NCBI GenBank assembly: GCA_965223695.1
Contig: CBDCXJ010000011.1
Coordinates: forward strand, 6,824 to 70,823
Length of the DNA stretch: 64,000 nt
From: Gaiellaceae bacterium
GTDB lineage: Bacteria; Actinomycetota; Thermoleophilia; Gaiellales; Gaiellaceae
Direction of reading: 5' to 3'
Part shown: in pieces, positions 12,393-26,852 of the stretch
Position numbering within the stretch: the first letter of the stretch is position 1
How the letters are laid out: the number at the start of each line of letters is the position of its first letter
Notes under the pieces: model-generated
The model's input: only the letters and a program-made list of their open reading frames with translations
What the model was told of the DNA's origin: nothing
The model's database searches: none
Made by a program: the position numbers and the translations under genes

Positions 12393-12800
12393 GTGCATGT
12401 GACGCGCGGCGCGGAGCGGATCCTGCAGCAGGGGGGAACCGTCACCGTGCTCCACGCGAGCCCCGCGGACGGCGCGACCCAGCTCACGGTCCTCGAGCAG
12501 ACGCACCAACCGGGCGCCACGACGCCAACGCACCAGCACCACGGCTCGGAGGAGACGATCACCGTGATCGACGGTCGCGGCGAGTTCTGGGCAGGCGAGC
12601 AGACCGTCGAGCTCACGACCGGCGAGACGATTGTGATCCCGCCGCATACCTGGCATGGCTTTCGCAACGTGGGCGAGCACCCACTCCGCATCATCGCCTC
12701 GATCGCGGGAGGCAAGCCGCTGGTCGAGTACGAGGCCGATCCGGGAACCGCTATCGAGGTCGGATCAGCCGAGTGGCGCTCGCACTGGAGCGCCGACTAG
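12393..12800 (+). CDS. Cupin domain protein
   Basis: [48 protein letters not shown] matches the two cupin motifs. The GTG start at 12393 or 12399 is preferred over the track start at 12330. Confidence 0.75.
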
Positions 12801-13192
12801 CAGACGCGCTCGACGCCCGGGAAGCCATCGAACGCGGCGTCGAACGACATGATCTGCTCGATCCTGTGCCGCTCCATCACGGCGACATGGATCGCGTCTC
12901 GCGCCGAGAGCCCGTAGTTACCCAGGACGACGTCCTTCGCGCGCTCCGCGTCGAGGTGGTCGATCGGGTGGACGAATTCGACGACGCCCAGGACAGCGTC
13001 AAAGGCCGGCTGAATCGCGTCCGGCCGCGCGATCGCCACGTAGCGGTGGAGGATCTCCTGGAGCACCTCAGCGTCGGTAACGAGCGGCTCGCGCGCGGCG
13101 ATCGCCGACTCGAGCAGACGCTGCGCATCGATCTTGTGCGGATGAGCCGCGCCGACCAGGTACATCGGCACGTTCGAGTCGATCAGGATCAG
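12797..13192 (-). CDS. vapC: PIN-domain toxin VapC (proposed CTG start overlapping the vapB stop)
   Basis: PIN pattern (L)[19 protein letters not shown] ... DAIHVAVM. The first conserved Asp lies upstream of the first canonical start at 13171, so the CDS is extended to the CTG at 13192. Confidence 0.75.
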
Positions 13193-13443
13193 CTCGGGCT
13201 CCCGGCGTAGCCAGATTCGATCTGCCCCAGCATGTCGTCAATATCCGCGGTTGGGTAAGCGTTCCTGGCCGCGGCGCGTACCACGGCAAGCCGCTTGTCA
13301 GGGTCTTCGACGACGATGCCGTCCCGGGCCTGGCGAAGCGACTGACGAACCCACGCCGAGACGGTCAGCCCACTCGCCTTCGCGGTCTTGCGGATCTCAC
13401 GAAGCTCGGCATCGTCGAGAACGACCTGAAGGCGCTTACTCAT
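13189..13443 (-). CDS. vapB: Ribbon-helix-helix antitoxin (VapB-like)
   Basis: 84 aa. [36 protein letters not shown] is a typical RHH N-terminus. It sits immediately upstream of, and overlaps, the PIN gene. Confidence 0.7.
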
Positions 13444-13478
13444 AGGATGAGTGTAGCCGCAGTATGTGCTCAGTATCC

Positions 13479-15301: not shown

Positions 15302-15522
15302 GGCGGACAGCGTACGCGGCGCGGCGCCTACCTCGACGCGACTCCGTGCAAGAGAAAAGGCACCAGGCGATCGCCCGTGGCGGCTGCGTCAAGTCGACCC
15401 GCGGCCAGGATCTGACTCGTCGCCGACTGGCTGATCGCGCCGAGGAGTGCATGGGCGACGGCGCGATTCCAGTGACCGGAGTCGCGCGCTGAACGACGAG
15501 CGCGCGACTCGGGTCGGGCCGT

Positions 15523-15738
15523 CTACGAGAGGATTTGAACCGCGAGGTTCGGGGTGCAACCCTGACGCAGCAGCTGCTCGGCGACGTGGAGATCGACGTC
15601 AACTCGCTCGGCGAGATACAGAGCCGTCGTCTCGTCGTAGCCGGCTTGGAGCAGCTGCTCGCGTCGCCAGGCGGTGACACGCTCGGCCTCGGTCTCGGTG
15701 AGGACTGCTTCGTTGAGTTCGGCAGTGGCCATGGTCAC
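15523..15738 (-). CDS. Small hypothetical protein (71 aa)
   Basis: Strong SD (GGAGGTG) 4 nt before the ATG. It has a predicted helical repeat LLQAGYDETTALYLAERVDVDLHVAEQLLRQGCTPNLAVQIL. No family recognised. Confidence 0.5.
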   Translation of the reverse strand: MTMATAELNEAVLTETEAERVTAWRREQLLQAGYDETTALYLAERVDVDLHVAEQLLRQGCTPNLAVQILS

Positions 15739-15884
15739 CTCCGTTTGTTGTATCCATTAGACCGATCCACGGATTGACCGCAGGGAGCGCAGCGCTAGGA
15801 AGTGCGACGGTTGCGTTAAGGCGTCTTAACCACTGCCGGCGAACAGGCTGGCCCCGACGGCGCGGGCAACGACGAGGCCGGGAG

Positions 15885-18800
15885 CTAGCTCTGCCGGCGA
15901 CGGCGACCACGGGCGCCGATGAGGAAGCCGACGGCGAACACGGCAATGACGGCGGCCGCGATCGTCGCGAGCTGGATCGAAGTGCCTACGCCCTTGCTCG
16001 TCTGAGTCTGTCCAGCTGCCTCAGCGCCCTCTGCCTCAGCCTGTGCGGGTGCGACTCCAGCGGCCTCCGATGACTCGCTCTCGCCGGTCTCCCCGTCCGA
16101 GCCGGCGCCTGCTGACGCACCCGCGACGTCTGACGAATCGCCGGCTGTAGCACCGTCAGAGGCGTCGCTCGACTCGCCGCTGGAGGCAGCCTCGTCACTG
16201 TCGCCCTCTCCCTCCACGGAGGAGCCAGAGGCACCGGCGCCGAGCACGCTCTCGAATGGATTGGGAGCCGGCGGTGAGGGCTGCTCGGCAGGCTCGGTCG
16301 GCTCAGCAGGGGCCGGAGCCGGCGCTGGCGGCGTTGCCGGGGACGATTCGACCGGCTCGGCGGCCGGAGTCTGCGGTTGACCCTTGGTCGGCTTCTTTGG
16401 CGCGGGCGTCTTCGGCTTGGGCTTGCGCGTCGTCGTCTCGGGTGGGTCGGCGGGCGCGGGCGGCGGGGCCGCGGCCGGAGCGGGTTCCGCCGGTGCCGGC
16501 GGTGGTGCCGGCGGGGCGGGCTCGATGGGGCCTTCTGAGGGCGTCGAGAGGCCGAGGATCGAGAAGGTCGCGGTTCCCTGTGAGTCACCGCCGGCCCCGT
16601 CCGAGACGGTGTAGGACACGTGGGCCTCGCCCAAGAATCCGTCGGGCGGCGTGTAGGTGATCGTCACGCCGTCGCTGACTTCGACCTCGCCGCCAGTCTC
16701 CGGCGGATCGACCGACACGATGGCGAGTAGATCGCCGTCCGGGTCGCTGTCGTTCGCCGTTACATCGATGCTGAGCGGCTCGTCGGACTTTGCTTCGAGG
16801 AAGTCATTCGTCACGACCGGGGGCCGGTTGCGCCTGATCCGAATCGTCAACTCGAGCGGAGTTCCCTCGCTGAGCCGACCGCTCGCCGCTTGCCCCCGCC
16901 GGCCATCGGTGGCCCGCACGCGCACGTTGCCGGGAAGGATGTGCAGGGCAACGCGGCCAGCATCGTCTGTCGTACCGACCTTCAGCCAGTCACGGCCCGG
17001 AACGGCGAGCTCGACGGTCGTGCCAGCCAGCGCCTCACCGTCTCGGTCGACGACCAGCACGGTCGCGTCCGAGAGCTTGAACTCGACTGTGCCTCCGGCC
17101 GCGCCGATGCTCGCACGTTGACGCACGTTGCGTCCGAGATGCTGCACGCGCGCAAGGACGCGGCCGGGGAACGTCTGGGTCACGACGTCGCCGCTCTCGC
17201 CTGCCGGGACGCGAGTCCAGCCGCTTCCCCTCACGTGGAGCTCGAAGACAGCGTCGGTCACAGGTTCGCCTGCGCTGTTCGAGACCTTGAACGACACGGG
17301 AACGAGCTTGAAGACGATCGGAGCTCCGTCTGCTGCGACCGTTCCACGGACGATGCCGCTCGCACCGCTGTAGGTGGCGCGCGCCGTCAGGCGTCCTGGG
17401 AACATGTCCGCCGTCACTTCGCCGCCGGCGCCGGTCGTACCAAGTTGCATCCAGCCCTTGCCGGGGAAGACACCGTCGATCGCTACGCCGCTCAACCCTG
17501 TGCCTGCAGTATCGAGCGCGCGGAAGGTGGCGCGCACGAGCTGGAAGTCGACGGCTGCTCCGCCGGGCTTGATCGCGGCGCGCTTGAGCTGCAGCCGGCC
17601 GGCGTGGTTGGCACGCACGGTCACCCGACCCGGGAACGTCTCTGTCGCCACCTGGCCGTTCTCGTCCGTCGTTCCGATCGCCGTCCAGCCCTTTCCGGCG
17701 AGAACCATCTCGATGGCATCGCCCGCGACAGGATTCCCGTCGGCGTCGAGCACGCGGAACCTCGCGCGCACGAGGCGGAACTCGGCGGTTCCTCCCGTTG
17801 CGGCCACATTCGCACGCAGGTTTCGCCAGACGCCGTTGTGCTGGGCGCGCAACCAGATTCGACCAGGGAAGGCCTCGGTCTTGACCTCGCCGCTCGCGTC
17901 GGACGTCCCGGCTGGGGTCCAGCCCGTACCAGGGACGAGGAGCTGAACAGGATCGCCGGCGATCGCGTTGCCATCGGCGTCGAGCACGCGGACGGTCAGC
18001 GGAGCGAGCCTGAACTCGATGTCGCCGCCAGTTGCCGCGATCCGCGCGCGAAGCGCGCGCCACGTCCCGAGAATCTGTGCTCTGACGAGCAGCCGGCCAG
18101 GGGCGGCCTGGTGGGCGACCCGTCCCTCGGCGTCGGTCGTGCCGATAGCCACCCAGCCACCACGGCCCGCGTGTGCTTGCACGGGAATGCCGGAAAGGGC
18201 TGCGCCCGCCTGATCGAGCACGCGAATCGGCGCCTCGACGAGCTTGAACTCAACCGTGGCCCCGCTCGCCGTGACGTTGGCGCGCGCGGTGCGCCACTGG
18301 CCACCGACCTGAGCACGTACCCAGTGCGTTCCGGGCAGGAGGGTGGTCGCGACGGAGCCGTCGCTCGCGGTAGATCCGACCGGCTGCCAGCCCTTGCCAC
18401 GCTCGAGCACCTGAACCTGCGCGCCTTCCACGCCGGCCCCGGAGACGTCGAGCACGACGACGCGGAGCTCTCCCAGCGTGAACGAGACGGTCGCGTCTTC
18501 CTCGACCTCCTGTACGACGTCGCTCGTTCGGCCCTTGTAGGTGGCGCGGAAGCGGTAGTTGCCGGGCTCGAGCTCAACGCTGGCGAGGCCCTCAGCGCTG
18601 GTCGAGCCAATAGAAGTCGTCGTTCCGCCGGCGATCGCGACGATCGCGACGGCAGCCACGGGCGTGCCTGCCGAGGAGCGCGCCTCGACCGTGATCATTG
18701 GAGTCGTGGCTTCTTCGGCCTCCTCTTCTGCGGCGGCGAGGCCGGGCGGCTGCGCTGACTCGCCCTCGGCCGACTCGGCGGGTGCCGGGGGTGCCCCGGG

Positions 18801-21122
18801 TGGCGGCGGCTCGGCAGGTGCGGGCGGCTCACTGCTCGGCTGCTCGGCCGGCTGCGGTGGCGCCGGGGTAGCCGGCACGGGCGGCTGAGGCGTCGGCTCG
18901 GCCGGACCGGGCGCGGCCGGAGCATCGGCGGGCGCTGGCGGCGGCGACGCTGGCGCAGGCGGCTCGGCCGGAGCCGGCTCGCTGGGCGTCGGCGGATCAG
19001 CCGGGGGCGGTGCGGCCGGCGGAGGCGGAGGTGGCGCTTCGGGCTGTGCGGGCGGTGGCGGCGGCGAGCCTTCGCCAGGCGGAGGCGGCGCGGGCGTGAC
19101 CGCGTTGCTGTCGTCAGCGCCGTACGCAGCGGCCGGGAACGCGGCGAAGACCATGATGGTTGCGAAGCTCGTCGCGAGCCTGACGACGCCACGTGCGCCG
19201 CGCGATCCGACGGCTTCGCTCGAGCGCGGGGCCGCAGGAGCCGCGCTCTCGACGGCGGGCACGTCCTGATCGAGCCCGCGGGCGAGCCGCGTCGGACGTG
19301 TGACCCAGTAGTAGATGCCGAGCGCATCGGGACGCTCGGCGTCGACATCGGTGATCTCGACGCCGAGCGACGCCTTGCCGGCGTTCGTCGCGACGTGGCG
19401 GAGGATCCCGCACACGGTTGCGGTTTCGAGGGTGCCGTCGAGTCGTGGCAGCTCGACCTTGACGGCAAGCGTGCTGCCGCGCTCGAGAGTGTCGGCCAGC
19501 TCGAGGGATGCCTCGAGGCCGAGGCCTCGGGGGGTGAGATCGACCACACGGATGGTCGTGGTCCCGATCTGTGCGTCGAGGCTGACGCCGTGGCGATGGT
19601 CGCGCGTCAGCCCGCGCCGCGTCGCGATCAACTGGAGGACGTCCATCATCGGCGCTAGCACGAAGAGACCGAGAAGTAGCACGACGTAGACCTCGCGCCC
19701 CTCGAATGCGGGCAGGATGTCACCCGTCCACTCGCCGACACCGCGAACGATCAAAAGCCCGTCGAGCAGGAGCGTGAACCCGGTCAGAAGCGCGAGGCGC
19801 CCGAGCGCGCGCAGTCCGCGCTCGTCGAGATCGGGCCGCCGCCGCGGCTTCGTCGGCAGGAGCGGCGTGATTGCGCGAATCGCGGCGCTGCAGTAGGACT
19901 CCATCGAGCGGATGCTGTGGCGCGTGCGGTCGCCGAGGGCGAGCGTGCCGCGGCCGAGCGCGAGGCCCGCGAGAACAGCGAGCACGTGCGCCGGCAGCCA
20001 GATTGCCGCCATCTCGGCAAACGACGCGCAGATCGGCAGCTGACCACTGGCGAGAGTGCCGGCGAGCACGGTGAGCAGAACCAGCCGGTGCAGGCCCGAG
20101 AAGTAGCGCGTGAGTGCCCCGAGATAGAGGAAGCGCGACACCAGCGGCAGGCCGCGCGCGACGAGCGGGTTGTCGCTCGTCGCAAAGACGCGGAGGTTCG
20201 CGAAGGCGCGGCGATGCCCGCGGTTGAGGTAGGTATCGAGGGTGTCTGGCCGGACGGCCTGCACGAGGGGCTCGGCGTGGAAGCGCACCTTGTAGCCGGC
20301 GGCCCTGAGCCTGATCGTCGTCCGCACCGCCTGGCTCGCGCCGCTCAGCGGATCGTCGATGTCGACCGAGGCGAGCGCGCTCTTGCGCACGATCGACGCC
20401 GAGCCACCCCAGGGAGCGTGTCCGTGTGCACCGAGCGAGGGCCCGATGACCTCGTTGAAGAAGTCCTCTTCGCTGCGCCCGTTGACCATGTAAGTGAAGG
20501 CGCTCGGGTTCGCGAGGCCGGTGCGGCACTGAACCGCCGCCACGTCGAAGACGCTGAAGTGGCCAACCGTGGCCTCGAAGACGTCGGCGAGCGGGACCTG
20601 CCCGCCCTGGAGGACCAGAACGAGCTCGCCGCTCGCGACGTCGAGGCCGGCCTGAAGCGTGTCGTCGGTCACGGCGTAGTCGGCGCCGTGGCTCTTGGCG
20701 AGGGCGGCGACGTCGTCGCGATACTCCGGATCGGTGACGAGGACGGTTGGCGAGCCGACGATCTCGCGGGCCGCGATCACCGTTCGCTCGAGGGCGGCGA
20801 GCGGAGCGTTGGCGCCGAGTACCAGCACGCTGGTGTCGAAGACCGGCCTTCTGATCGGCCTGGAGAACCTGGGCACCGACCACGACTGCGCGGCGAGCGA
20901 CAGCAGCTGGAAGAAGCCCCAAAGCTCGGCGGCGATCAGCGGGACGGCCAGCCACTTCGGCGCCCCGCCTAGAGTGAATGCGAGACGCCACGTGAGGTAG
21001 CCGGCGCCGACCAGGAGCGCCAGCGAGACGATCAGCTTGATGCGTCGCTCGGTGCGCGTGAGCAGGCCAAGGCCAGCGCGCACCGAGGTGAAGCGTCGTA
21101 CCGCCGAATGTCCCTTGCTCAT
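15885..21122 (-). CDS. Giant membrane protein: degenerate GT2/cellulose-synthase-like domain + PilZ + TM + Pro-rich linker + 8 beta-sandwich repeats + cadherin-like domain + acidic tail + C-terminal TM anchor
   Basis: 1745 aa from the ATG at 21122 (the track ORF starts at 21182). The start was chosen by alignment with the paralog N-terminus (MSKGHSAVRRFTSVRAG versus MSHGRE...RRLTSVRAG). The BcsA-like backbone is WGGSASIVRK...AGYKVRFH. The PilZ motifs are RRGLTR and DLTPRG. See findings. Confidence 0.85.
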   Translation of the reverse strand: MSKGHSAVRRFTSVRAGLGLLTRTERRIKLIVSLALLVGAGYLTWRLAFTLGGAPKWLAVPLIAAELWGFFQLLSLAAQSWSVPRFSRPIRRPVFDTSVLVLGANAPLAALERTVIAAREIVGSPTVLVTDPEYRDDVAALAKSHGADYAVTDDTLQAGLDVASGELVLVLQGGQVPLADVFEATVGHFSVFDVAAVQCRTGLANPSAFTYMVNGRSEEDFFNEVIGPSLGAHGHAPWGGSASIVRKSALASVDIDDPLSGASQAVRTTIRLRAAGYKVRFHAEPLVQAVRPDTLDTYLNRGHRRAFANLRVFATSDNPLVARGLPLVSRFLYLGALTRYFSGLHRLVLLTVLAGTLASGQLPICASFAEMAAIWLPAHVLAVLAGLALGRGTLALGDRTRHSIRSMESYCSAAIRAITPLLPTKPRRRPDLDERGLRALGRLALLTGFTLLLDGLLIVRGVGEWTGDILPAFEGREVYVVLLLGLFVLAPMMDVLQLIATRRGLTRDHRHGVSLDAQIGTTTIRVVDLTPRGLGLEASLELADTLERGSTLAVKVELPRLDGTLETATVCGILRHVATNAGKASLGVEITDVDAERPDALGIYYWVTRPTRLARGLDQDVPAVESAAPAAPRSSEAVGSRGARGVVRLATSFATIMVFAAFPAAAYGADDSNAVTPAPPPPGEGSPPPPPAQPEAPPPPPPAAPPPADPPTPSEPAPAEPPAPASPPPAPADAPAAPGPAEPTPQPPVPATPAPPQPAEQPSSEPPAPAEPPPPGAPPAPAESAEGESAQPPGLAAAEEEAEEATTPMITVEARSSAGTPVAAVAIVAIAGGTTTSIGSTSAEGLASVELEPGNYRFRATYKGRTSDVVQEVEEDATVSFTLGELRVVVLDVSGAGVEGAQVQVLERGKGWQPVGSTASDGSVATTLLPGTHWVRAQVGGQWRTARANVTASGATVEFKLVEAPIRVLDQAGAALSGIPVQAHAGRGGWVAIGTTDAEGRVAHQAAPGRLLVRAQILGTWRALRARIAATGGDIEFRLAPLTVRVLDADGNAIAGDPVQLLVPGTGWTPAGTSDASGEVKTEAFPGRIWLRAQHNGVWRNLRANVAATGGTAEFRLVRARFRVLDADGNPVAGDAIEMVLAGKGWTAIGTTDENGQVATETFPGRVTVRANHAGRLQLKRAAIKPGGAAVDFQLVRATFRALDTAGTGLSGVAIDGVFPGKGWMQLGTTGAGGEVTADMFPGRLTARATYSGASGIVRGTVAADGAPIVFKLVPVSFKVSNSAGEPVTDAVFELHVRGSGWTRVPAGESGDVVTQTFPGRVLARVQHLGRNVRQRASIGAAGGTVEFKLSDATVLVVDRDGEALAGTTVELAVPGRDWLKVGTTDDAGRVALHILPGNVRVRATDGRRGQAASGRLSEGTPLELTIRIRRNRPPVVTNDFLEAKSDEPLSIDVTANDSDPDGDLLAIVSVDPPETGGEVEVSDGVTITYTPPDGFLGEAHVSYTVSDGAGGDSQGTATFSILGLSTPSEGPIEPAPPAPPPAPAEPAPAAAPPPAPADPPETTTRKPKPKTPAPKKPTKGQPQTPAAEPVESSPATPPAPAPAPAEPTEPAEQPSPPAPNPFESVLGAGASGSSVEGEGDSDEAASSGESSDASDGATAGDSSDVAGASAGAGSDGETGESESSEAAGVAPAQAEAEGAEAAGQTQTSKGVGTSIQLATIAAAVIAVFAVGFLIGARGRRRRQS
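16830..18701 (-). repeat. Eight tandem, diverged ~234-bp (77-79 aa) coding repeats (carboxypeptidase-regulatory-like / Ig-like beta-sandwich pattern)
   Basis: Unit consensus: xxVRVLDADGxxxAGxxVxLxxPGxGWxxxGTTDxxGxVxTxxFPGRxxVRAxxxGxxxxxRAxVAAxGGTxEFxLV. Unit boundaries are 16830, 17067, 17298, 17532, 17766, 18000, 18234 and 18468. Confidence 0.8.
18702..19118 (-). repeat. Proline-rich low-complexity linker coding region (about 139 aa of P/A/E)
   Basis: Translation APPPPGEGSPPPPPAQPEAPPPPPPAAPPPADPP..., seen on the plus strand as runs of GGC/GGN. A second P-rich/acidic block lies at about 15975-16553. Confidence 0.75.
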
Positions 21123-21268: not shown

Positions 21269-23296
21269 CTAGAAGCCGGCCGACGGGAATGCTGCCGCGA
21301 CCATGACGACGGCGAACGTCGTCGCAACCCGAAGCGTGCCCCGTGCCCGGCCCGAGCCGACGGGCTCACGCGAGCCCGGTGCGGCTACCGTGGCGTCTCC
21401 CGGCACTACGGCCGCTTCGTCGAGACCGCGTGAGACCCGCGTGGGACGCGTCACCCAGTAGTAGATGCCGAGCGCGTCTGGCTGCTCGGGATCGGTCTCG
21501 GTGACCTCGACGCCCAGCGCCGAGCTCTCCTCGCCAGCCGAGACGTGACGGACGAGGCCCTTGAGCCGCGCGGTCATCGAGCTTCCGTCGAGCTGCGGCA
21601 GGTCGACATCGACGGCGAGTGCGTTCCCTCGCGGCAGCTGCGTCGCAAGCTGCGGGGCAAGCTCGATCCCGAGCCCGCGCGGGGTCACGTCGACCACCCG
21701 GGCCTCGGCGGCTCCGACGCGCGCTGCGAGGTTGGTCGGATGGCGGAAGCGTCGGCTCTCCTTGCGTCTCGAGACGAGCAGCTGGAGCACGTCGGTGATG
21801 GGAGCAAGCGCCAGCACACCGACGATCAACACGGCGTAGACCTCACGGCCGTCGAAGCCAGGAAGAACGTCGCTTCCCCAGGCCGTGGCGCCTCGCATGA
21901 TCAGTAGGACATCGAGGGCTAGTGCCACAGCGGTGAGCAGGGCAAGGCGCCCGAGCGCGCGTAGCCCCCGCCCGTTGCCGAGCGCGCGACGTCGAGGCCG
22001 GGTCGGCAGCACCGGGGTCAGGGCTCGGAGCGCGGCGCCGCAATAAGCCTCCATCGAGCGCAGACTGTGGCGCGTTCGATCGCCCAGGGCGAGCGTGCCC
22101 CGGCCGAGCGCGAGGCCAGCGAGCCCGCCGAGGATATGGGCCGGCAGCCAGAGCACGGCCAGCTCGCTCAGCGACGCGCTGAGAGGCAGCTGGCCGCTCG
22201 CGAGTGTTCCCGCCAGAACGGCGAGGAGGACGAAGCGGTGCAGACCAGAGAAGTAGCGCGAGATAGCACACAGGAAGACGAGGCGCGAGCGCAGCGGCAG
22301 CCGCCTGGCGATCAGTGGGTTCTCGGCCGTTGCGAGAACGCGAAGGTTGGCGAAAGCACGGCGGTGGCCGCGGTTGAGGTACCCGTCGAGCGTGTCGGGC
22401 CGAACGGCCTGCACGAGCGGCTCAGGGTGGAAGCGCACCTTGTAGCCGGCCGCCCTGAGCCTGATCGTTGTCCGCACCGCCTGGCTCGCGCCCCCGAGCG
22501 GTTTCGCAAGCTCGATCGACGCCAGGGCATCGCTTCGAACAACCGAGGCCGATCCGCCCCACGGCGTGTCTCCGCTGGCTCCGAGCGCGGGGCCGAGCAC
22601 CTCATTGAAGAGCGCCTCTTCGCTTCGGCCGTTGACGACGTAGGTCAGCGCATCAGTGTTGGCGAGGCCCGTGCGACACTGCACGACGGCCACGTCCGGC
22701 GCGGCGAAGTACCCCAGAGTCGAGTCGAAGACGTCGGCGAGCGGAACCTGTCCCCCCTGAAGAACGAGGACGAACTCGCCGCCCGCGGCGCGAAGTCCGG
22801 CCTCGAGCGTGTCGTAGGTGACCGCGTAGAGCGCCTTGTGCCGTGCGACGAGGCTCGCAACGTCGGTGCGATTCGCCGGATCCGTGACGACGACCGGCCG
22901 GTCTCCGGCGATCTGCTGAGCGGCCATGACCGAACGCTCGATGGCGGCCGGCGAGGCGTTTGCGCCGAGCACGAGCACCGAGGTGTCGGGTTCCTCGTCG
23001 CTTGCGAGCTCGCGCTCGGAGGGCACGGACCAGGCCTGGAACGCCAGCGCTGTGAGCTGGAGGAAGCCCCAGATCTCGGCACCGATCAACGGGAAAGCAA
23101 GCCAGCGGACCACTCCGTCGAGCGTCGCGCCCACCCGCCACGTCAGGTAGACGACGCCCAGGAGCAGCGCCAGGCCCACAATGCCGTGGATCCGGCGCTC
23201 ACTCGAGCACAGGAGTCTTACACCGGCACGTACCGACGTGAGTCGTCGAGCGTCAATCCATCCATGGGCCACTTCTGTCTCCCGTCCGTGGGACAC
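21269..23296 (-). CDS. Degenerate GT2/cellulose-synthase-like membrane protein with a C-terminal PilZ domain (short paralog)
   Basis: 675 aa, collinear with the first ~690 aa of the giant protein and clearly similar by eye. It has the same replaced catalytic motifs (VLVLQGGQVP, GASQAVRT, NRGHRRAFANLRV). The PilZ motifs are RRKESR and DVTPRG. It ends right after the last TM (AFPSAGF*). Confidence 0.85.
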   Translation of the reverse strand: MSHGRETEVAHGWIDARRLTSVRAGVRLLCSSERRIHGIVGLALLLGVVYLTWRVGATLDGVVRWLAFPLIGAEIWGFLQLTALAFQAWSVPSERELASDEEPDTSVLVLGANASPAAIERSVMAAQQIAGDRPVVVTDPANRTDVASLVARHKALYAVTYDTLEAGLRAAGGEFVLVLQGGQVPLADVFDSTLGYFAAPDVAVVQCRTGLANTDALTYVVNGRSEEALFNEVLGPALGASGDTPWGGSASVVRSDALASIELAKPLGGASQAVRTTIRLRAAGYKVRFHPEPLVQAVRPDTLDGYLNRGHRRAFANLRVLATAENPLIARRLPLRSRLVFLCAISRYFSGLHRFVLLAVLAGTLASGQLPLSASLSELAVLWLPAHILGGLAGLALGRGTLALGDRTRHSLRSMEAYCGAALRALTPVLPTRPRRRALGNGRGLRALGRLALLTAVALALDVLLIMRGATAWGSDVLPGFDGREVYAVLIVGVLALAPITDVLQLLVSRRKESRRFRHPTNLAARVGAAEARVVDVTPRGLGIELAPQLATQLPRGNALAVDVDLPQLDGSSMTARLKGLVRHVSAGEESSALGVEVTETDPEQPDALGIYYWVTRPTRVSRGLDEAAVVPGDATVAAPGSREPVGSGRARGTLRVATTFAVVMVAAAFPSAGF

Positions 23297-23376: not shown

Positions 23377-24513
23377 TCAGCGACCAAGCGCGCCGCGGTA
23401 GTACGCCCAGGCGGCGGTCACACGTGCGAGCCGATCGAGCTCGTCGTCGAGGAAGCGCTCGCGGTGGCGTGCGTCACCGATGGCGACCGCGGTGAAGTAC
23501 AGGGCACCGAACGCGCCAAGGATCCCGGCAACGCGAAAGTGGGCCTCGGTGAGGACGGCTTCGCGGTCGGCAATGACCGCCGAGACCAGGAGGTTCGGGT
23601 CGTCACCGACCCAGCGCATCGCCAGCTCACGATCGACAACGAGAAATGCGAAGATCAGGAAGAACAACCCGACTGCGAGTGCGACGGCGATGACGCGAAG
23701 CGCCAGGCTGAAGAGCAGTGCCAGGTCGATGTTGAGCCGCTCGATCCGTCCGAGCGCGGGCGTCGACGGGACCACCCCGCGTTCGACGAGAACGCGCGCG
23801 GGTGTGTTGCGAGCCCGCTCCTCGAGCTCCTCTCCCGGCTCGAAGTCGTGCACCCCCCTTCGCTCCCGCGAGAGCCCGTAGACGAGGATCAGCACGACGA
23901 GGATCGCGAACGCGATCACCACGCCGCCGTATCGCCAACCGCTCAACCCACCGAACGCCTGCCACGTCTCCATCGAGAGCGCAAGGAACAGGAGCACGGC
24001 CATGACGGGCGGCATCGCGCGGATCGCGATCGCGCCACTGTCGGCCAGCGTCGACGCGATCTGACGCGTCTGGTGCACCAGGAGCGACAGGACACCGAAG
24101 CTCATCAAGAAATACAGGGCGATCGCGATGCCGATCGTCGCGATTGCCAGGCCGATCACGGTATTCGCGCTCTCACCGAGCGCCGCAGCTGCGATCGGCG
24201 GAGCGACGACCAGCGCGAGGACCTCGGTGAACGTGATGCGCCGCGAGCGAGCTAGCAGCGGGCGGTCGCGCAGGAAGTTGAGCAGCGCGTAGACGCTCAC
24301 GGCGACGGCGAGCGCCGCGAGCACGGCAAGGATTCGAAGCCACCATGACCACTCGGGGCGCAGGGCGATTCCCAGGCCCACGATGAACAGGGCATAGAGA
24401 CCGGGACGCATGCGCGTGAGCGTGTCGGTACGCGCGTCGTAGCCGGCATTCAGATGCGGCAGCCCGTTGTGGAGGAAGTAGCGCTCGATCCGGGCTCGCT
24501 CGAGCGGCTCCAT
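23377..24513 (-). CDS. Polytopic integral membrane protein, function unknown
   Basis: 378 aa with several hydrophobic helices. It is the only long ORF with coding-like composition here. Its start abuts the DUF1015 stop. Confidence 0.6.
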   Translation of the reverse strand: MEPLERARIERYFLHNGLPHLNAGYDARTDTLTRMRPGLYALFIVGLGIALRPEWSWWLRILAVLAALAVAVSVYALLNFLRDRPLLARSRRITFTEVLALVVAPPIAAAALGESANTVIGLAIATIGIAIALYFLMSFGVLSLLVHQTRQIASTLADSGAIAIRAMPPVMAVLLFLALSMETWQAFGGLSGWRYGGVVIAFAILVVLILVYGLSRERRGVHDFEPGEELEERARNTPARVLVERGVVPSTPALGRIERLNIDLALLFSLALRVIAVALAVGLFFLIFAFLVVDRELAMRWVGDDPNLLVSAVIADREAVLTEAHFRVAGILGAFGALYFTAVAIGDARHRERFLDDELDRLARVTAAWAYYRGALGR

Positions 24514-25779
24514 CTACAGGAGTCTGACGACGAGGCCGGAGCGCAACTTCGGCGCGAAGTACGTCGACTTTGGCGGCATGATCTCGCCGCGATCGGAGAC
24601 GTCCATGAGCTCGTCGACCGACGTCGGGTGGAGCGCGAAGCTGACCGCCGATGGCCCCCGGCAGAGCCGATCCAACGCGGCCGGTCCATCGGGTCCGGGC
24701 AGAAACTCGAGCCGTGGATCGGTTCGCGGGTCGTCGATGCCGAGCACCGGGCGGAGCAGGTGGTCGTGCAACACGCTCACGTCGAGCCCAGCGACGCCGG
24801 GCTGCGAGAGCAGGGCGCCGGGCACACGCACGGTGAACCAGGCCTCGCCGAGGCACATCAGGAACTCTCCGGCGGCTGCCGGGCGGGCCGGGTCTGGGAG
24901 CTCGGAGACCTCGAAGCGATCGCGGACGGCGGCCAGGACGTCACGGGGACCGCACGCAGCAGCGGCCGCGTTCACCGTGACGGAGCGGTCGTAGGGGTGG
25001 ATCGCAAGCTGGTCAGAGGAGAACAAGACCGAGACGATGTGGGCGTAGGGCTCGGCGCCGGTATGCGCCGGGTTCTCGCCCGCCCGAAGCTGCGCGAAGC
25101 GGGCCGCGGCAGCCGCCCGATGATGGCCGTCGGCGACATAGAGCGCGTCGAGTGCGCCCAGCGCCTCGCTGGTCGCATCGACGAGCTCGCTCCCGGCGAC
25201 CACCCAGACCGTCATACGCAGGCCGTCGTCGGCCTCGATGTCGATCGTCGGCGTGGTGCTAGCGCCTTCGGCGATGACGCGCTCGACCGCCTCGGACGGC
25301 CGGTGAATGAGAAAAACGGGAAGGAAGCTCGCTCGTACCGCGCTCATGTACTCGAGCAGCCGGTCCTCCTGATCCTGCCGGGTCGACTCGTGAACCTTGA
25401 CGCGGCCGCTCGTGTAAGCCTCGAGCGCGACGTCGGCGATGACCCCGGTCTGGGAGTGACCATCGCGTGCGAGCCGGCAGACGAGGAAGATCGGCGGTGC
25501 GTGGAAGTTGTACGTGTCGCCGTCGAGAAGCGCCCGAAGGCGCGCCGCCGTCTGCGCCATGAGCTCGCGCCGCGCGGCATCGTCGCGTCGCGGCGCGTCG
25601 ACCTCTGAGCGGACGACGTTGAGGAAGCCGAGGGGGCCTCCGACAGCCGATTCGCTCGACTCCTCGAGCGTCGGGTCGGAGTACTGCGGCGCGACAACAT
25701 CGTCGGCGACCTCGGGTCGGGGAAGGTAGACGCCCACGGGCTGGACTGCCGGACCCAGCTGACCGTTTGGCTGGCTCAC
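24514..25779 (-). CDS. DUF1015 family protein
   Basis: 421 aa. VADGHHRAAAA and the C-terminal MPPKSTYFAPKLRSGLVV are characteristic of DUF1015. Confidence 0.8.
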   Translation of the reverse strand: MSQPNGQLGPAVQPVGVYLPRPEVADDVVAPQYSDPTLEESSESAVGGPLGFLNVVRSEVDAPRRDDAARRELMAQTAARLRALLDGDTYNFHAPPIFLVCRLARDGHSQTGVIADVALEAYTSGRVKVHESTRQDQEDRLLEYMSAVRASFLPVFLIHRPSEAVERVIAEGASTTPTIDIEADDGLRMTVWVVAGSELVDATSEALGALDALYVADGHHRAAAAARFAQLRAGENPAHTGAEPYAHIVSVLFSSDQLAIHPYDRSVTVNAAAAACGPRDVLAAVRDRFEVSELPDPARPAAAGEFLMCLGEAWFTVRVPGALLSQPGVAGLDVSVLHDHLLRPVLGIDDPRTDPRLEFLPGPDGPAALDRLCRGPSAVSFALHPTSVDELMDVSDRGEIMPPKSTYFAPKLRSGLVVRLL

Positions 25780-26852
25780 GTGTGCTCGGCCTCGAAGTCG
25801 GCCATGAGCCCCGCGAGCGCCTCGACGCCCTCGAGGGGCATCGCGTTGTACAGCGACGCTCGCACACCGCCGACGCTGCGGTGGCCCCTGAGACCCTTCA
25901 GGCCGGCGGCGGCGCAGGCCTCGAGGAATCGCGTCGTCAGCTCGTCGGTCGCGAGCCAGAAGACGACGTTCATCAGAGAGCGGCTCGCGGCCTCGACGGG
26001 GCTAGTGAACACGCCGTCGCTGCGCTCGATCGCTTCGTAGACGAGGGCCGCCCGCTCGCGCGCGGCTGCCTCCATCGCTACCAGGCCACCCTGGCTCTCG
26101 ACCCAGCGCAACATCTTCCCGATGAGCCAGATCGAGAACATCGGCGGCGTGTTGTAGAGCGAGTTCCCGTCACTGTGAACCTCGTATCGCAGGTACGCGC
26201 CGAGCTCGCTGTTGAGCGATGCAAGCGCGTCGCGGCGCACGAACACGATCGTTGCGCCGGCCGGGCCGAGGTTCTTCTGCGCGCCGCCGTAGACGAGATC
26301 GAACAGCTGCCAGGGAATAGCCCGGCTGCCGATGTCCGAGGACATGTCGGCAACGAGCGGCACGCCAAGATCAGGCCATTCGCACATCTGAACACCGTGG
26401 ATCGTCTCGTTCGACGTGACGTGCAGGTAGCGCGTCTCGCTCCCGAGCTCGAGCTCGTCCGCGGCGGGCATGCGCGCGTAGCCGCACGCTCTTCCATCCC
26501 AGGCCGCGTACGCCTCGCCGTGGGCGACCGCGTCGGCGAAGGCCTTTGCAGCCCAGGCGCCTGAAAGCACGTACGCACCATTCTGGCCCTCGCCGAGAAA
26601 GTTCATCGGGAGCATCGAGAACTGCAGGGTCGCGCCGCCCTGGAGAAACAGGATCGCGAAGTCATCAGGCACGCCGAACACGCGGCGCGCCAGATCGATC
26701 GCCTGATCGTGAACCGCCGAGTACTCGGCGCCGCGGTGGCTCATCTCGATCAGCGACATCCCGGTGCCGTCGTGGTCGATCAGCCCATCGCGCGCCTCCT
26801 CGAGAATCGCCCTGGGCAGCGTTGAAGGACCGGCCGAGAAGTTGAAGACCAT
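25776..26852 (-). CDS. serC: Phosphoserine aminotransferase
   Basis: 358 aa. MVFNFSAGPSTLPRAILEEA..., GGAQKNLGPAG (PLP-Lys region), LRGHRSVGGVRASLYNAMP. Confidence 0.9.
   Translation of the reverse strand: MVFNFSAGPSTLPRAILEEARDGLIDHDGTGMSLIEMSHRGAEYSAVHDQAIDLARRVFGVPDDFAILFLQGGATLQFSMLPMNFLGEGQNGAYVLSGAWAAKAFADAVAHGEAYAAWDGRACGYARMPAADELELGSETRYLHVTSNETIHGVQMCEWPDLGVPLVADMSSDIGSRAIPWQLFDLVYGGAQKNLGPAGATIVFVRRDALASLNSELGAYLRYEVHSDGNSLYNTPPMFSIWLIGKMLRWVESQGGLVAMEAAARERAALVYEAIERSDGVFTSPVEAASRSLMNVVFWLATDELTTRFLEACAAAGLKGLRGHRSVGGVRASLYNAMPLEGVEALAGLMADFEAEHT

What the first reader, a model, noticed from the sequence alone, without database searches (positions are those of the whole stretch)
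15885..19190. The longer paralog carries a large extracytoplasmic adhesin-like extension after its last TM helix, a PilZ-to-surface fusion
The short paralog stops right after its last hydrophobic helix (...AAAFPSAGF*). The long one reads through the equivalent helix (...AAFPAAAYG, 19119-19190) into the following modules:
- a 139-aa Pro-rich stalk;
- eight beta-sandwich repeats;
- a cadherin-like/RTX-adhesin Ig-like module (TNDFLEAKSDEPLSIDVTANDSDPDGDLLAIVSV...ITYTPPDGFLGEAHVSYTVSDGAGG, about 16554-16829);
- another Pro/Lys-rich segment and a Ser/Gly/Asp/Glu-rich acidic tract;
- a C-terminal TM with an RGRRRRQS tail.
By the positive-inside rule, the region between the two TMs should be outside the cell. 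One polypeptide would then link a cytoplasmic c-di-GMP receptor to a ~1100-aa surface-exposed adhesin-like array anchored at both ends. The architecture suggests inside-out control of a surface structure. It may have arisen by stop-codon loss or gene fusion after the tandem duplication.
Basis: partly seen in the sequence, partly recalled or inferred. Interest (0 to 1): 0.75.

Follow-up and report, generated by a model that had tools for sequence, protein, structure and literature searches.

The report
Dead cellulose-synthase fused to surface stalk
This is one real 1,745-residue gene in which a catalytically dead, cellulose-synthase-like membrane protein with a PilZ domain continues into a long cell-surface stalk anchored at both ends, and it belongs to a sizeable but unstudied family in uncultured Actinobacteria rather than being a one-off fusion.

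Summary
ORF 15885..21122(-) is uninterrupted, coding-like throughout, and present in two independent assemblies.

Three parts of the interpretation need correcting.
1. The cytoplasmic part is not just a PilZ protein. It is a whole BcsA-type synthase module (GT2, TM bundle, PilZ) that has lost DxD, TED, QxxRW and the gating-loop motif. Both paralogs are pseudo-synthases.
2. The architecture is not unique. Among the 155 best-scoring relatives analysed, 88 equally dead proteins have an aligned PilZ. Of these, 64 carry a >150-aa extension and 31 end in a TM. None of 24 catalytically intact relatives has an extension. The window's repeats are homologous to those extensions, so the long form is ancestral and the short paralog is a truncation.
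3. c-di-GMP binding is doubtful here. The second Arg of RxxxR is 96% conserved in the family but is Thr in this protein, and Pfam PilZ does not score.

The topology (signal-peptide-like TM, ectodomain, tail anchor) copies a BcsA-BcsB fusion without BcsB homology. I found no publication on the family, and function is inferred only.

The parts
15885..21122 (-). Whole long gene (1745 aa from ATG 21122; the open frame extends to GTG 21182)
   Evidence: The ORF is uninterrupted. GC3 is 0.70-0.92 in frame. The identical protein P0167 and the one-residue variant P0001 occur in independent assemblies. An AGGA lies 9 nt before ATG 21122.
20082..21035 (-). N-terminal TM1-TM2 and cytoplasmic GT2 (GT-A) domain with degenerate catalytic motifs (1765-aa numbering ~50-366)
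   Evidence: Pfam Glyco_trans_2_3 scores E 8.7e-10 and TIGR03030 CelA E 2e-23, far below its cutoff. In the alignment to BcsA 4HG6/5EJ1, DAD is replaced by QGG, TED by SQA, QRGRW by RGHRR and FFCGS by PWGGS.
19632..20084 (-). Four-helix TM region after the GT domain (aa ~367-516). It includes the clade-specific GDxxRxxxR loop that replaces the FxVTxK gating loop
   Evidence: Hydropathy analysis places the helices. The alignment to live relatives shows FKVTPK replaced by LPTKPR. The G-D-x-x-R-x-x-x-R signature is 79-95% conserved in 81 dead-clade sequences and absent in live ones.
19188..19631 (-). PilZ-like beta-barrel region (aa ~518-665) with RRGLTR and DLTPRG
   Evidence: The region aligns with family members whose PilZ scores E 1e-6 to 1e-13. 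AF2 predicts a beta-barrel with pLDDT ~80. Foldseek matches BcsA over more than 700 columns and MotI PilZ at E 7e-4. Pfam PilZ itself is not significant for this protein, and the canonical second Arg is Thr.
19131..19187 (-). Post-PilZ TM helix 7 (aa 666-684). It is signal-peptide-like: RGARGVVR, then a hydrophobic core, then AAYG|ADD
   Evidence: Hydropathy analysis. The same element, usually with an AxA motif, is present in about 30 relatives. It is conserved in the short paralog, which ends right after it.
18705..19121 (-). Pro-rich acidic linker 1 (aa 688-826)
   Evidence: Composition is P 41%, A 24%, E 12%. The surrounding 685-826 segment has 0 Lys/Arg and a net charge of -20.
16824..18704 (-). 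Eight ~78-aa transthyretin-like (CarboxypepD_reg-type) beta-sandwich repeats (aa 827-1453)
   Evidence: Pfam CarboxypepD_reg scores E 2.4e-30. The repeats align with each other. The AF2 model of repeats 4-5 has pLDDT 94. Foldseek matches TIE, SlaB, pilins, SdrD B and carboxypeptidase regulatory domains. The repeats are homologous to the extensions of family members.
16557..16829 (-). Single Big_9 / cadherin-like domain carrying an NDSDPDGD motif (aa 1452-1542)
   Evidence: Pfam Big_9 scores E 2.3e-19, Cadherin_5 7.8e-15 and Cadherin_4 2.2e-11. NCBIfam tandem-95 repeat scores E 1.8e-12 but stays below its cutoff.
15972..16547 (-). Pro/Lys-rich linker 2 (aa 1546-1650) followed by the Ala/Ser/Gly/Glu/Asp-rich tract (aa 1651-1737)
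   Evidence: Composition and charge analysis.
15888..15971 (-). C-terminal tail-anchor TM (aa 1738-1756) plus the RGRRRRQS cytoplasmic tail. There is no LPXTG motif
   Evidence: Hydropathy is 2.56. The same TM plus basic tail closes 31 family members.
21269..23272 (-). Short tandem paralog (667 aa, 64% identical to the long N-terminal module). It is the same dead GT2 + PilZ + TM7 and stops right after TM7
   Evidence: dN/dS against its ortholog P0010 is 0.18.
19328..19367 (-). 40 nt that are missing in the Logan assembly of the same strain (a frameshifting deletion allele or an assembly artefact)

Best explanation
The long ORF is a genuine single gene. It belongs to an undescribed family found in Acidimicrobiia and Thermoleophilia MAGs.

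**Architecture**
- A BcsA-derived module made of 2 TM helices, a GT-A domain, 4 TM helices and a PilZ domain. It has lost every catalytic signature of processive GT2 synthases.
- A signal-peptide-like seventh TM helix follows.
- Next comes an extracytoplasmic stalk of transthyretin-like beta-sandwich repeats. In this protein it also carries one Ca-binding-type cadherin-like domain and has Pro-rich linkers at both ends.
- A tail-anchor TM with a basic cytoplasmic tail closes the protein.
- Topologically this is a BcsA-BcsB fusion in which the synthase is a pseudoenzyme and the BcsB part is replaced by a stalk.

**Proposed mechanism (inferred, not shown)**
- The dead synthase/PilZ module acts as a cytoplasmic sensor or scaffold.
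- Both ends of the ectodomain enter the same TM assembly: TM7 at one end, and the tail anchor packing against the bundle as BcsB's anchor does on BcsA.
- The state of the cytoplasmic module therefore sets the display, conformation or clustering of a wall-spanning surface array used for adhesion, aggregation or matrix attachment.
- In the family at large the input is most likely c-di-GMP. In this subfamily the binding motif is partly degenerate, so the input may be weakened or lost.

**Evolution**
- The long form is ancestral. The short tandem paralog is a truncated derivative that kept only TM7.
For: **Shown: the gene and its modules**
- The gene is intact and coding-like in two assemblies.
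- It has BcsA-like sequence and fold.
- DxD, TED, QxxRW, FFCGS and FxVTxK are all replaced, and the replacements are identical in all four subfamily members.
- dN/dS is 0.18-0.30, which indicates purifying selection on the dead module.
- The repeats are a confident all-beta fold of the stalk type.

**Shown: the family**
- A profile search gave 2049 hits, of which the 155 best-scoring were analysed; 97 of these lack all three catalytic motifs.
- Of 88 such dead proteins with an aligned PilZ, 64 have a >150-aa extension and 31 end in a TM within the last 60 aa. None of 24 catalytically intact relatives with PilZ has an extension.
- A signal-like TM after PilZ and a TM + Arg-rich C-terminus recur across relatives.
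- The window's repeats match family extensions at the same position, with 25-32% identity over 370-520 aa and E 1e-24 to 1e-33.
- The window subfamily nests inside the long, dead clade.
- PilZ motifs are highly conserved in the family: R 96-98%, D 96%, G 96%.
- GGDEF-EAL or GGDEF genes lie next to two relatives.

**Shown: topology**
- The charge distribution fits the proposed topology.

**Precedent**
- BcsA-BcsB single-chain fusions and tail-anchored BcsB are described in PMC8892547.
Against: - No experiment exists for any family member, and all members come from MAGs.
- In this protein Pfam PilZ is not significant, and the canonical second Arg of RxxxR is Thr.
- The close relatives P0008 and P0010 lack even the shifted motif.
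- I found no c-di-GMP enzymes or exopolysaccharide operon among the window genes scanned.
- The N-terminal AF2 model is of low confidence (pLDDT 57.5).
- TM7 may be cleaved by signal peptidase, which would uncouple the two halves.
- One assembly of the same strain carries a frameshifting 40-nt deletion. This could mean relaxed selection.
Confidence: 0.55

Rival explanations
1. It is a non-catalytic subunit of a polysaccharide secretion machine. The dead synthase keeps a membrane channel or co-polymerase role, comparable to BcsB, Alg44 or PgaD. It pairs with an active synthase encoded elsewhere, possibly via heteromers with its tandem paralog. The beta-sandwich ectodomain binds and guides the glycan through the thick monoderm wall.
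For: - The module has a BcsA-like fold, and its topology mimics a BcsA-BcsB fusion.
- CarboxypepD_reg/transthyretin-like domains occur in carbohydrate-active proteins (e.g. 4ilv).
- Tandem pairs of family genes recur (window; L004; L008).
- Sugar-nucleotide and GT genes lie near relatives, and an epimerase lies at window 28139-29068.
Against: - QxxRW and the gating loop, which line and operate the BcsA channel entrance, are lost along with the catalytic residues.
- No BcsB domain is detected.
- No active processive GT2 lies beside the pair in the window.
- Both tandem copies in the window are dead.
Confidence: 0.2
2. It is a fusion for co-insertion only. TM7 is a true signal peptide that is cleaved at AYG|ADD. 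This releases an independent tail-anchored surface or wall protein (S-layer-like or adhesin) whose function is not controlled by the cytoplasmic module. The short paralog shows that the N-terminal module works alone.
For: - TM7 has n-, h- and c-regions with small residues at -3 and -1, and AxA motifs follow the equivalent helix in most relatives.
- I recall that fused BcsAB (AcsAB) polypeptides in Komagataeibacter are reported to be processed. I did not check this here.
- Short forms consisting of the module plus TM7 alone persist under purifying selection.
Against: - The association between dead module and extension is strict: 64 of 88 versus 0 of 24. That argues for a functional link rather than an accidental fusion.
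- A 139-aa Pro-rich linker directly after TM7 makes sense as a second wall-spanning tether but not as a free N-terminus.
- AxA motifs are frequent by chance in Ala-rich, high-GC proteins.
Confidence: 0.15
3. The long ORF is a decaying or artefactual gene. Either it is an assembly chimera joining two genes, or it is a pseudogene on its way out, as hinted by the frameshifted allele.
For: - The Logan contig of the same strain has a 40-nt deletion. It breaks the PilZ domain and splits the gene into 795 + 937 aa.
- The relative L003 lacks the long copy altogether, and its short ortholog is followed directly by FMN_dh.
- Both the catalytic site and the PilZ motif are degenerate.
Against: - The intact ORF is present in two other assemblies.
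- The junction DNA is identical in all of them.
- GC3 is high in frame throughout the 5.2 kb.
- The architecture is that of dozens of relatives, so a chimera is excluded.
- The deletion lies 140 nt upstream of the junction, and the resulting second ORF has no export signal.
Confidence: 0.07

Closest known systems
BcsA-BcsB cellulose synthase, including single-chain BcsAB (AcsAB) fusions
   Same: - The N-terminal module aligns in sequence and predicted fold to BcsA, covering the GT-A domain, the TM bundle and the C-terminal PilZ.
- The C-terminal part has BcsB's topology: an export helix, an extracytoplasmic beta-rich domain and a C-terminal tail-anchor TM.
- Fusion of the two into one chain has precedent (PMC8892547).
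   Different: - All catalytic and gating motifs are lost.
- The ectodomain has no BcsB (PF03170) similarity. It is made of transthyretin-like repeats plus a cadherin-like domain.
- There are only 2 TM helices before the GT domain.
- No bcs accessory genes are nearby.
- The host is probably a monoderm actinobacterium.
Alg44 (alginate co-polymerase)
   Same: It has a cytoplasmic PilZ, a single TM helix and an extracytoplasmic domain in one chain. It is a non-catalytic partner in a synthase-dependent system (PMC8892547).
   Different: - In Alg44 the PilZ is N-terminal and free-standing, not embedded in a dead synthase.
- Its periplasmic part is described as resembling another protein class rather than a repeat stalk. 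I recall this as membrane-fusion-protein-like.
- It has no second anchor.
LapD/LapG/LapA inside-out c-di-GMP signalling (from my own knowledge, not tested here)
   Same: The concept is shared. A degenerate enzyme domain serves as a cytoplasmic receptor whose state is relayed across the membrane to control a large repeat adhesin on the surface.
   Different: - There is no sequence or fold relationship. LapD uses degenerate GGDEF-EAL and a periplasmic domain that sequesters a protease.
- In that system the adhesin is a separate T1SS substrate. Here the receptor and the surface array are one polypeptide.
Gram-positive stalk-repeat surface proteins (Cna-B / SdrD B repeats, pilin shafts) and the archaeal S-layer stalk SlaB
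   Same: The repeats have the same prealbumin/transthyretin-like beta-sandwich fold in tandem (Foldseek E 1e-5 to 1e-4). Pro-rich wall-spanning segments sit next to a membrane anchor.
   Different: - There is no LPXTG or sortase signal.
- The export signal is internal rather than N-terminal.
- The protein is anchored at both ends and fused to a multi-pass cytoplasmic module.
Bacterial cadherin-like / Big_9 'tandem-95' repeat adhesins
   Same: One domain (aa 1452-1542) matches Big_9, Cadherin_5 and Cadherin_4 and carries a DxDxDG-type acidic motif.
   Different: - There is a single copy instead of long arrays.
- The NCBIfam tandem-95 score (47 bits) is below the cutoff (90).
- No RTX or T1SS features were seen.

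Membership tests
Processive GT2 synthase of the BcsA/cellulose synthase type (functional enzyme) | GT-A domain embedded between TM helices, with overall BcsA fold | tested here: met
   - Pfam Glyco_trans_2_3 scores E 8.7e-10 and TIGR03030 scores E 2e-23.
- phmmer to BcsA 4HG6/5EJ1 gives E 2e-12.
- Foldseek of the AF2 model gives BcsA 4p00_A at E 2e-20 and TMq 0.49. The model is of low confidence (pLDDT 57.5).
Processive GT2 synthase of the BcsA/cellulose synthase type (functional enzyme) | Catalytic motifs: DxD, TED (catalytic base), QxxRW, plus FFCGS and the FxVTxK gating loop | tested here: not met
   - DAD is replaced by QGG, TED by SQA, QRGRW by RGHRR, FFCGS by PWGGS and FKVTPK by LPTKPR, in alignments to BcsA and to live relatives.
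- The curated NCBIfam cutoffs are missed by a wide margin: 82 against 699 bits.
PilZ-domain c-di-GMP receptor | PilZ beta-barrel fold / Pfam PF07238 at the gathering score | tested here: inconclusive
   - Pfam PilZ is not reported for the long protein at E<=0.1. The short paralog scores 23.4 bits against a cutoff of 22.5.
- The region is homologous to family members with PilZ at E 1e-6 to 1e-13.
- AF2 predicts a barrel with pLDDT ~80, and Foldseek hits MotI PilZ at E 7e-4.
PilZ-domain c-di-GMP receptor | RxxxR motif 20-30 residues upstream of [D/N]hSxxG | tested here: inconclusive
   - The canonical second Arg (profile position 506, 96% conserved in 81 family sequences) is Thr.
- A one-residue-shifted R503-x-x-x-R507 exists 20 aa before DLTPRG.
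- Thr replaces Ser in the second motif. T or S at that position is common in this family.
PilZ-domain c-di-GMP receptor | Binds c-di-GMP | not testable with these tools
   This needs ITC, DRaCALA or a similar assay on the purified cytoplasmic region.
BcsB / BcsAB fusion | BcsB domain (PF03170: carbohydrate-binding and flavodoxin-like domains) | tested here: not met
   There is no BcsB hit in Pfam at E<=0.1 and no PDB sequence hit for the ectodomain. The fold of the repeats is transthyretin-like.
BcsB / BcsAB fusion | Exported domain followed by a C-terminal tail-anchor TM, encoded with or next to a BcsA-like protein | tested here: met
   TM7, the ectodomain and TM8 with its RGRRRRQS tail are in the same chain as the BcsA-like module. 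The precedent is in PMC8892547.
LPXTG (sortase-anchored) surface adhesins | C-terminal LPXTG/LAXTG motif before the hydrophobic segment and basic tail | tested here: not met
   The C-terminus reads ...SKGVGTSIQLATIAAAVIAVFAVGFLIGARGRRRRQS and contains no LPXTG or LAXTG. None is present in the 31 relatives with a C-terminal TM either.
Bacterial cadherin-like / tandem-95 repeat adhesins | Big_9/Cadherin-like domains in tandem arrays | tested here: inconclusive
   One domain passes the Pfam cutoffs (Big_9 70.5 bits against 23.6; Cadherin_5 54.9 against 26.5). It is a single copy, and the NCBIfam tandem-95 model is below its cutoff.
Proposed new family: dead BcsA-like GT2 + PilZ + signal-like TM + transthyretin-repeat ectodomain + tail anchor (Acidimicrobiia/Thermoleophilia) | Loss of DxD, TED and QxxRW together with the clade signature G-D-x-x-R-x-x-x-R after TM4 and D-V before the PilZ linker | tested here: met
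   The long protein has G397, D398, R401, R405, D494 and V495 (P0001 numbering). These positions are 75-95% conserved in 81 dead-clade sequences and are not conserved in 28 live ones.
Proposed new family: dead BcsA-like GT2 + PilZ + signal-like TM + transthyretin-repeat ectodomain + tail anchor (Acidimicrobiia/Thermoleophilia) | Post-PilZ export helix, an extension homologous to that of other members, and a terminal TM with a basic tail | tested here: met
   - One search shows the junction and C-terminal sequences of 31 members.
- One search shows repeat homology at E 1e-24 to 1e-33 at the same position.
- One search gives the counts: 64 of 88 dead members have an extension against 0 of 24 live ones.

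The most novel reading that the evidence does not exclude
The family is a new class of one-chain inside-out signalling device in monoderm Actinobacteria. A cellulose synthase has been converted into a pure receptor: the dead GT pocket plus PilZ sense c-di-GMP or a sugar nucleotide. The former glycan-channel TM bundle then transmits that state to a wall-spanning protein arch tethered at both ends. In this way second-messenger level would directly switch cell-surface adhesion or matrix attachment, with no polysaccharide, protease or secretion system involved.
Probability: 0.25. Interest if true: 0.85.

Novelty: new variant of a known kind. Interest (0 to 1): 0.62.

Why it matters
- c-di-GMP effectors in Actinobacteria are few, and PilZ proteins there are barely studied.
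- A BcsA scaffold that has shed catalysis while keeping its membrane bundle and PilZ would be a clear case of an enzyme turning into a receptor or scaffold. Its consistent pairing with a tail-anchored surface stalk adds to this: 64 of 88 dead relatives have an extension against 0 of 24 live ones.
- It would also be a compact model for how cytoplasmic signals reach the surface of a thick-walled cell.
- It gives annotators a concrete rule. These proteins are now labelled glycosyltransferase, carboxypeptidase regulatory-like protein or even protocatechuate dioxygenase. None of these labels describes them.
- For this locus, the tandem short/long pair is a natural experiment on what the ectodomain adds.

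Tried and rejected
**Searches that were uninformative or found nothing**
- Searching the full 1765-aa protein in the word-indexed database was swamped by cadherin-like and low-complexity hits. It returned only the self-match plus unrelated adhesins.
- The repeat region alone gave two weak hits.
- Scans of GTDB genome contigs and JGI metagenome contigs with the subfamily alignment found no relative. The close subfamily is known only from a few ENA/Logan/NCBI assemblies.
- A look-up of P0001's contig failed.
- A PDB sequence search of the ectodomain found nothing.
- An Rfam scan found only tRNAs and no c-di-GMP riboswitch.
- Tandem-repeat DNA analysis shows that the 78-aa repeats are old, not recent duplications.
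- Literature searches for a described dead GT2-PilZ family found nothing.

**Ideas rejected**
- Assembly chimera at 19100-19200: the junction is identical in independent assemblies and the architecture is family-wide.
- Sortase substrate: there is no LPXTG.
- BcsB homology of the ectodomain: there is none.
- Origin by stop-codon loss after duplication: the extension is homologous to those of outgroup members.
- P0016 (578 aa, Thermoleophilia) as evidence for an ancestral short form. It is frameshifted inside PilZ, and a second damaged copy lies 2.8 kb downstream, so it is unreliable.
- The upstream 378-aa membrane protein as a conserved partner. It is syntenic in L003 (78% identity) but absent next to P0008.


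Full report

Yes. The minus-strand frame is open from 21182 to 15885. The probable start is ATG 21122, which has an AGGA 9 nt upstream. Gene callers in public assemblies made the same choice, giving 1745 aa.

Third-position GC stays at 0.70-0.92 in this frame over the whole 5.2 kb, including the stretch 19100-19200. Nothing suggests two genes read together.

In the numbering of the 1765-codon frame, hydropathy finds TM helices at about 50-68, 78-96, 367-385, 391-416, 461-482, 495-516, 666-684 and 1738-1756.
- a 139-aa linker (688-826) with 41% Pro;
- eight ~78-aa repeats (827-1453; Pfam CarboxypepD_reg, E 2.4e-30);
- one Big_9/Cadherin_5 domain (1452-1542, window 16557-16829; E 2e-19 and 8e-15);
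- a Pro/Lys-rich segment (1546-1650);
- an Ala/Ser/Gly/Glu/Asp tract (1651-1735);
- a final TM followed by RGRRRRQS.

The short paralog (21269..23272, 667 aa) ends ...AAAFPSAGF* right after the helix equivalent to 666-684.

Lys+Arg counts support an N-in/C-in topology with residues 685-1737 outside. The count is 8 in the 29-aa N-terminus, 10 in loop 417-460 and 5 of 9 in the C-tail. It is 0 in loop 483-494 and 0 in the 142 residues of linker 1.

**2. Continuity and the assembly question**

The exact protein is recorded on a 90.8-kb contig (NCBI and ENA). A variant with one substitution is on a 1.25-Mb ENA contig.

A Logan contig from run ERR13605531 is 100% identical to the window over 13 kb except for one gap. 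It lacks 40 nt at about 19328-19367, inside the PilZ domain and about 140 nt upstream of the junction helix.

That deletion shifts the frame, so the gene caller produced a 795-aa and a 937-aa product. The second product starts at MITVEARS... and has no export signal. This is therefore a broken allele or an assembly error, not a functional two-gene arrangement.

The junction DNA itself is identical in all versions. I could not inspect reads.

**3. What the N-terminal two fifths really are**

It is more than that.

Pfam finds a GT2 domain. NCBIfam's cellulose-synthase models align over residues 49-404 but fall far below their cutoffs (82 against 699 bits). phmmer finds the solved BcsA structures at E 2e-12.

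An AlphaFold model is of low overall confidence (pLDDT 57.5), though the PilZ barrel is at about 80. Foldseek places it on BcsA (4p00_A, E 2e-20, TM-score 0.49 over more than 700 columns) and on the PilZ protein MotI.

The alignments show that every signature of a processive GT2 synthase is gone:
- VFDADHVP has become VLQGGQVP;
- ITEDAET has become ASQAVRT;
- QQRGRWA has become NRGHRRA;
- FFCGS has become PWGGS;
- the gating-loop FKVTPK of a live relative has become LPTKPR.

The same replacements are invariant in the long paralog, the short paralog and two relatives at 64-66% identity. dN/dS between these sequences is 0.18-0.30, although dS is near saturation.

Both tandem genes are therefore conserved pseudo-synthases, not decaying enzymes.

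**4. The architecture is a family trait**

A profile of the four close sequences, searched against 1.84 billion representative proteins, gave 2049 hits, of which 245 were below E 1e-30. I aligned the best 155 to the profile and read the motif columns.
- 97 lack DxD, TED and QxxRW altogether, and 45 keep all three.
- Of the 88 dead proteins with an aligned PilZ, 64 continue for more than 150 residues. Many run to 1400-2600 aa in total.
- 31 of those have a TM helix within their last 60 residues. Others are cut by contig ends.
- Of the 24 live proteins with an aligned PilZ, none has an extension.

In about 30 complete members the helix after PilZ looks like a signal peptide: basic residues, a hydrophobic core, and often AxA. 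The chain ends with a TM plus an Arg-rich tail and no LPXTG.

Pfam finds CarboxypepD_reg repeats in the extensions of several members (P0027, P0029, P0032, P0070).

The window's repeat region matches the extensions of P0047, P0033, P0055, P0027, P0034, P0051 and P0030 at the same position. Identity is 25-32% over 370-520 residues, with E 1e-24 to 1e-33. I judge this to be about as diverged as the N-terminal modules, though I did not compute their identities.

In a neighbour-joining tree of the N-terminal module, the window subfamily sits inside the dead, long clade. It lies next to three 1800-2077-aa Acidimicrobiia proteins.

The simplest reading is that the long architecture is ancestral and the short forms lost the extension. 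The short forms are the window's short paralog with its ortholog P0010, and P0008. They keep a now purposeless export helix as their last element.

A relative (L003) has only the short gene, followed directly by the FMN-dependent dehydrogenase that follows the long gene in the window. The long copy was therefore lost or never present there. No relative shows a clean split into a PilZ gene plus an adhesin gene.

The source names are 'hypothetical protein', 'PilZ domain-containing protein', 'carboxypeptidase regulatory-like domain-containing protein' or 'protocatechuate 3,4-dioxygenase beta subunit'. All come from Acidimicrobiia, Acidimicrobiales or Thermoleophilia MAGs. Full-text searches found no paper on such proteins.

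**5. The ectodomain**

An AlphaFold model of repeats 4-5 is confident (pLDDT 94) and all-beta.

Foldseek matches the Bacillus anthracis TIE protein, the Sulfolobus S-layer stalk SlaB, Gram-positive pilins, SdrD B domains and the regulatory domain of carboxypeptidases (E 6e-6 to 1e-3). This is the transthyretin/prealbumin-like sandwich used as a stalk module in surface proteins.

The repeats are 35-50% identical to each other and leave no DNA-level tandem signal, so they are old.

The single cadherin-like domain carries an NDSDPDGD motif of the kind that binds calcium in such domains. That attribution is from my own knowledge.

There is no BcsB domain and no PDB sequence match.

Both ends of the globular array are flanked by long Pro-rich, Lys/Arg-poor linkers. 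I infer that each could span a monoderm wall, so the array would form an arch tethered at both ends unless TM7 is cleaved.

**6. Is it a c-di-GMP receptor?**

For the family, probably.
- The PilZ motif columns are among the most conserved: R502 80%, R506 96%, R510 98%, D528 96%, G533 96%.
- Pfam PilZ is significant in relatives.
- P0017 sits in an apparent operon with a GGDEF-EAL protein, and P0027 lies near a GGDEF response regulator.

For this protein it is open.
- Pfam PilZ does not reach E 0.1.
- Position 506 is Thr. It is Ser or Thr in the short paralog, P0008 and P0010.
- The two window paralogs have an Arg one position later, so a shifted RxxxR lies 20 residues before DLTPRG. P0008 and P0010 do not have it.
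- I found no GGDEF, EAL or HD-GYP gene among the window genes scanned.

**7. Mechanism**

*Shown:* a dead BcsA scaffold with a PilZ-fold domain, an export helix, a stalk-type ectodomain and a tail anchor, conserved together.

*Inferred:* the cytoplasmic module is a sensor or scaffold. Both ends of the ectodomain are held in or at its TM bundle, the tail anchor by analogy with BcsB on BcsA (PMC8892547). Its state would then govern display or clustering of the surface array. I put 0.55 on this overall picture, 0.9 on the architecture and family assignment, and about 0.35-0.4 on c-di-GMP binding by this particular protein.

*Rivals:*
- a non-catalytic subunit of a polysaccharide exporter (0.2);
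- a cleaved, functionally independent tail-anchored surface protein (0.15);
- a decaying or artefactual gene (0.07).

**8. Comparison and novelty**

It works like a BcsA-BcsB fusion in topology, like Alg44 in linking PilZ to an extracytoplasmic domain, and conceptually like LapD in using a degenerate enzyme as a transmembrane relay.

It is not a member of the functional synthases, because the motifs fail. It is not BcsB, because the domain is absent. It is not a sortase substrate, because there is no LPXTG.

It is best filed as a member of an undescribed family, which makes it a new variant of a known kind.

Its c-di-GMP link is weaker in this protein than in its relatives.

Noticed in passing
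window 19328-19367 (minus-strand gene); L002 6916-6917: The Logan assembly of run ERR13605531 is 100% identical to the window over 13 kb but lacks these 40 nt, with only 2 nt of microhomology at the junction. This frameshifts the long gene inside PilZ. It is either a deletion allele in the population or an assembly artefact.
   Followed up: partly
window 21269-23272 (-) and 15885-21122 (-): Both tandem paralogs, not only the long one, have lost DxD, TED and QxxRW. The substituted residues (QGG, SQA, GHRRA) are invariant across the four-member subfamily, and dN/dS is 0.18-0.30.
   Followed up: yes
L004 1688-13712 (Acidimicrobiia MAG GCA_046331155.1); L008 7914-14490 (Thermoleophilia MAG GCA_041393535.1): Family genes recur as neighbouring pairs elsewhere. 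L004 has a 2077-aa and a 1903-aa member side by side, both long. L008 has two copies 2.8 kb apart, both apparently frameshifted. Pairing may be functional (heteromers?).
   Followed up: partly
L007 4088-14979 (ENA ERZ23486758): The family member P0017 is followed, with overlapping or adjacent starts, by a 206-aa unknown protein, a 988-aa GGDEF-EAL protein, a 203-aa unknown protein, a Peptidase_M73 (TasA/camelysin-like) protein and a >1179-aa DUF2341/Laminin_G protein. This looks like a c-di-GMP plus matrix/surface operon.
   Followed up: no
window 23377-24513 (-): A 378-aa multi-TM protein with no Pfam hit lies directly upstream of the short paralog. It is syntenic and 78% identical in relative L003, but it is absent next to P0008 in L001/L009.
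   Followed up: partly
profile positions 397-405 and 494-495 (P0001 numbering); window ~19908-19934 and ~19638-19643: A clade-specific signature G-D-x-x-R-x-x-x-R sits after TM4, where BcsA has IF3 and the gating loop. A D-V pair sits at the end of TM6. Both are 75-95% conserved in 81 dead-clade proteins and not conserved in 28 live ones. They may mark a new functional site.
   Followed up: partly
L003 384-2711 versus window 24514-26852: In L003 the class-V aminotransferase (SerC-like) and DUF1015 are called as one 775-aa protein, whereas in the window they are two genes overlapping by 4 nt. L003 also has the FMN-dependent dehydrogenase split into 185 + 183 aa. L003 is a 2x-coverage contig, so these may be indel errors.
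   Followed up: no
window 12797-13171 (-) and ~13189-13450 (-): A PIN-domain (VapC-like) toxin gene has a short upstream ORF whose product ([19 protein letters not shown]...) resembles a ribbon-helix-helix antitoxin. It was called NikA-like in L002.
   Followed up: no
window 15302-15884: A 583-bp stretch without a convincing gene lies between the stop of the long gene and the FMN-dependent dehydrogenase. One gene caller placed a 69-aa ORF there (L002 10513-10722). One weak terminator-like hairpin lies at 15364-15377 (-).
   Followed up: no
relatives P0118, P0126 (JGI): Family members are auto-annotated as 'protocatechuate 3,4-dioxygenase beta subunit'. I presume this is because the transthyretin-like repeats resemble the dioxygenase fold (compare Foldseek hits 4ilv and 1dlm). 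It is a systematic misannotation.
   Followed up: partly
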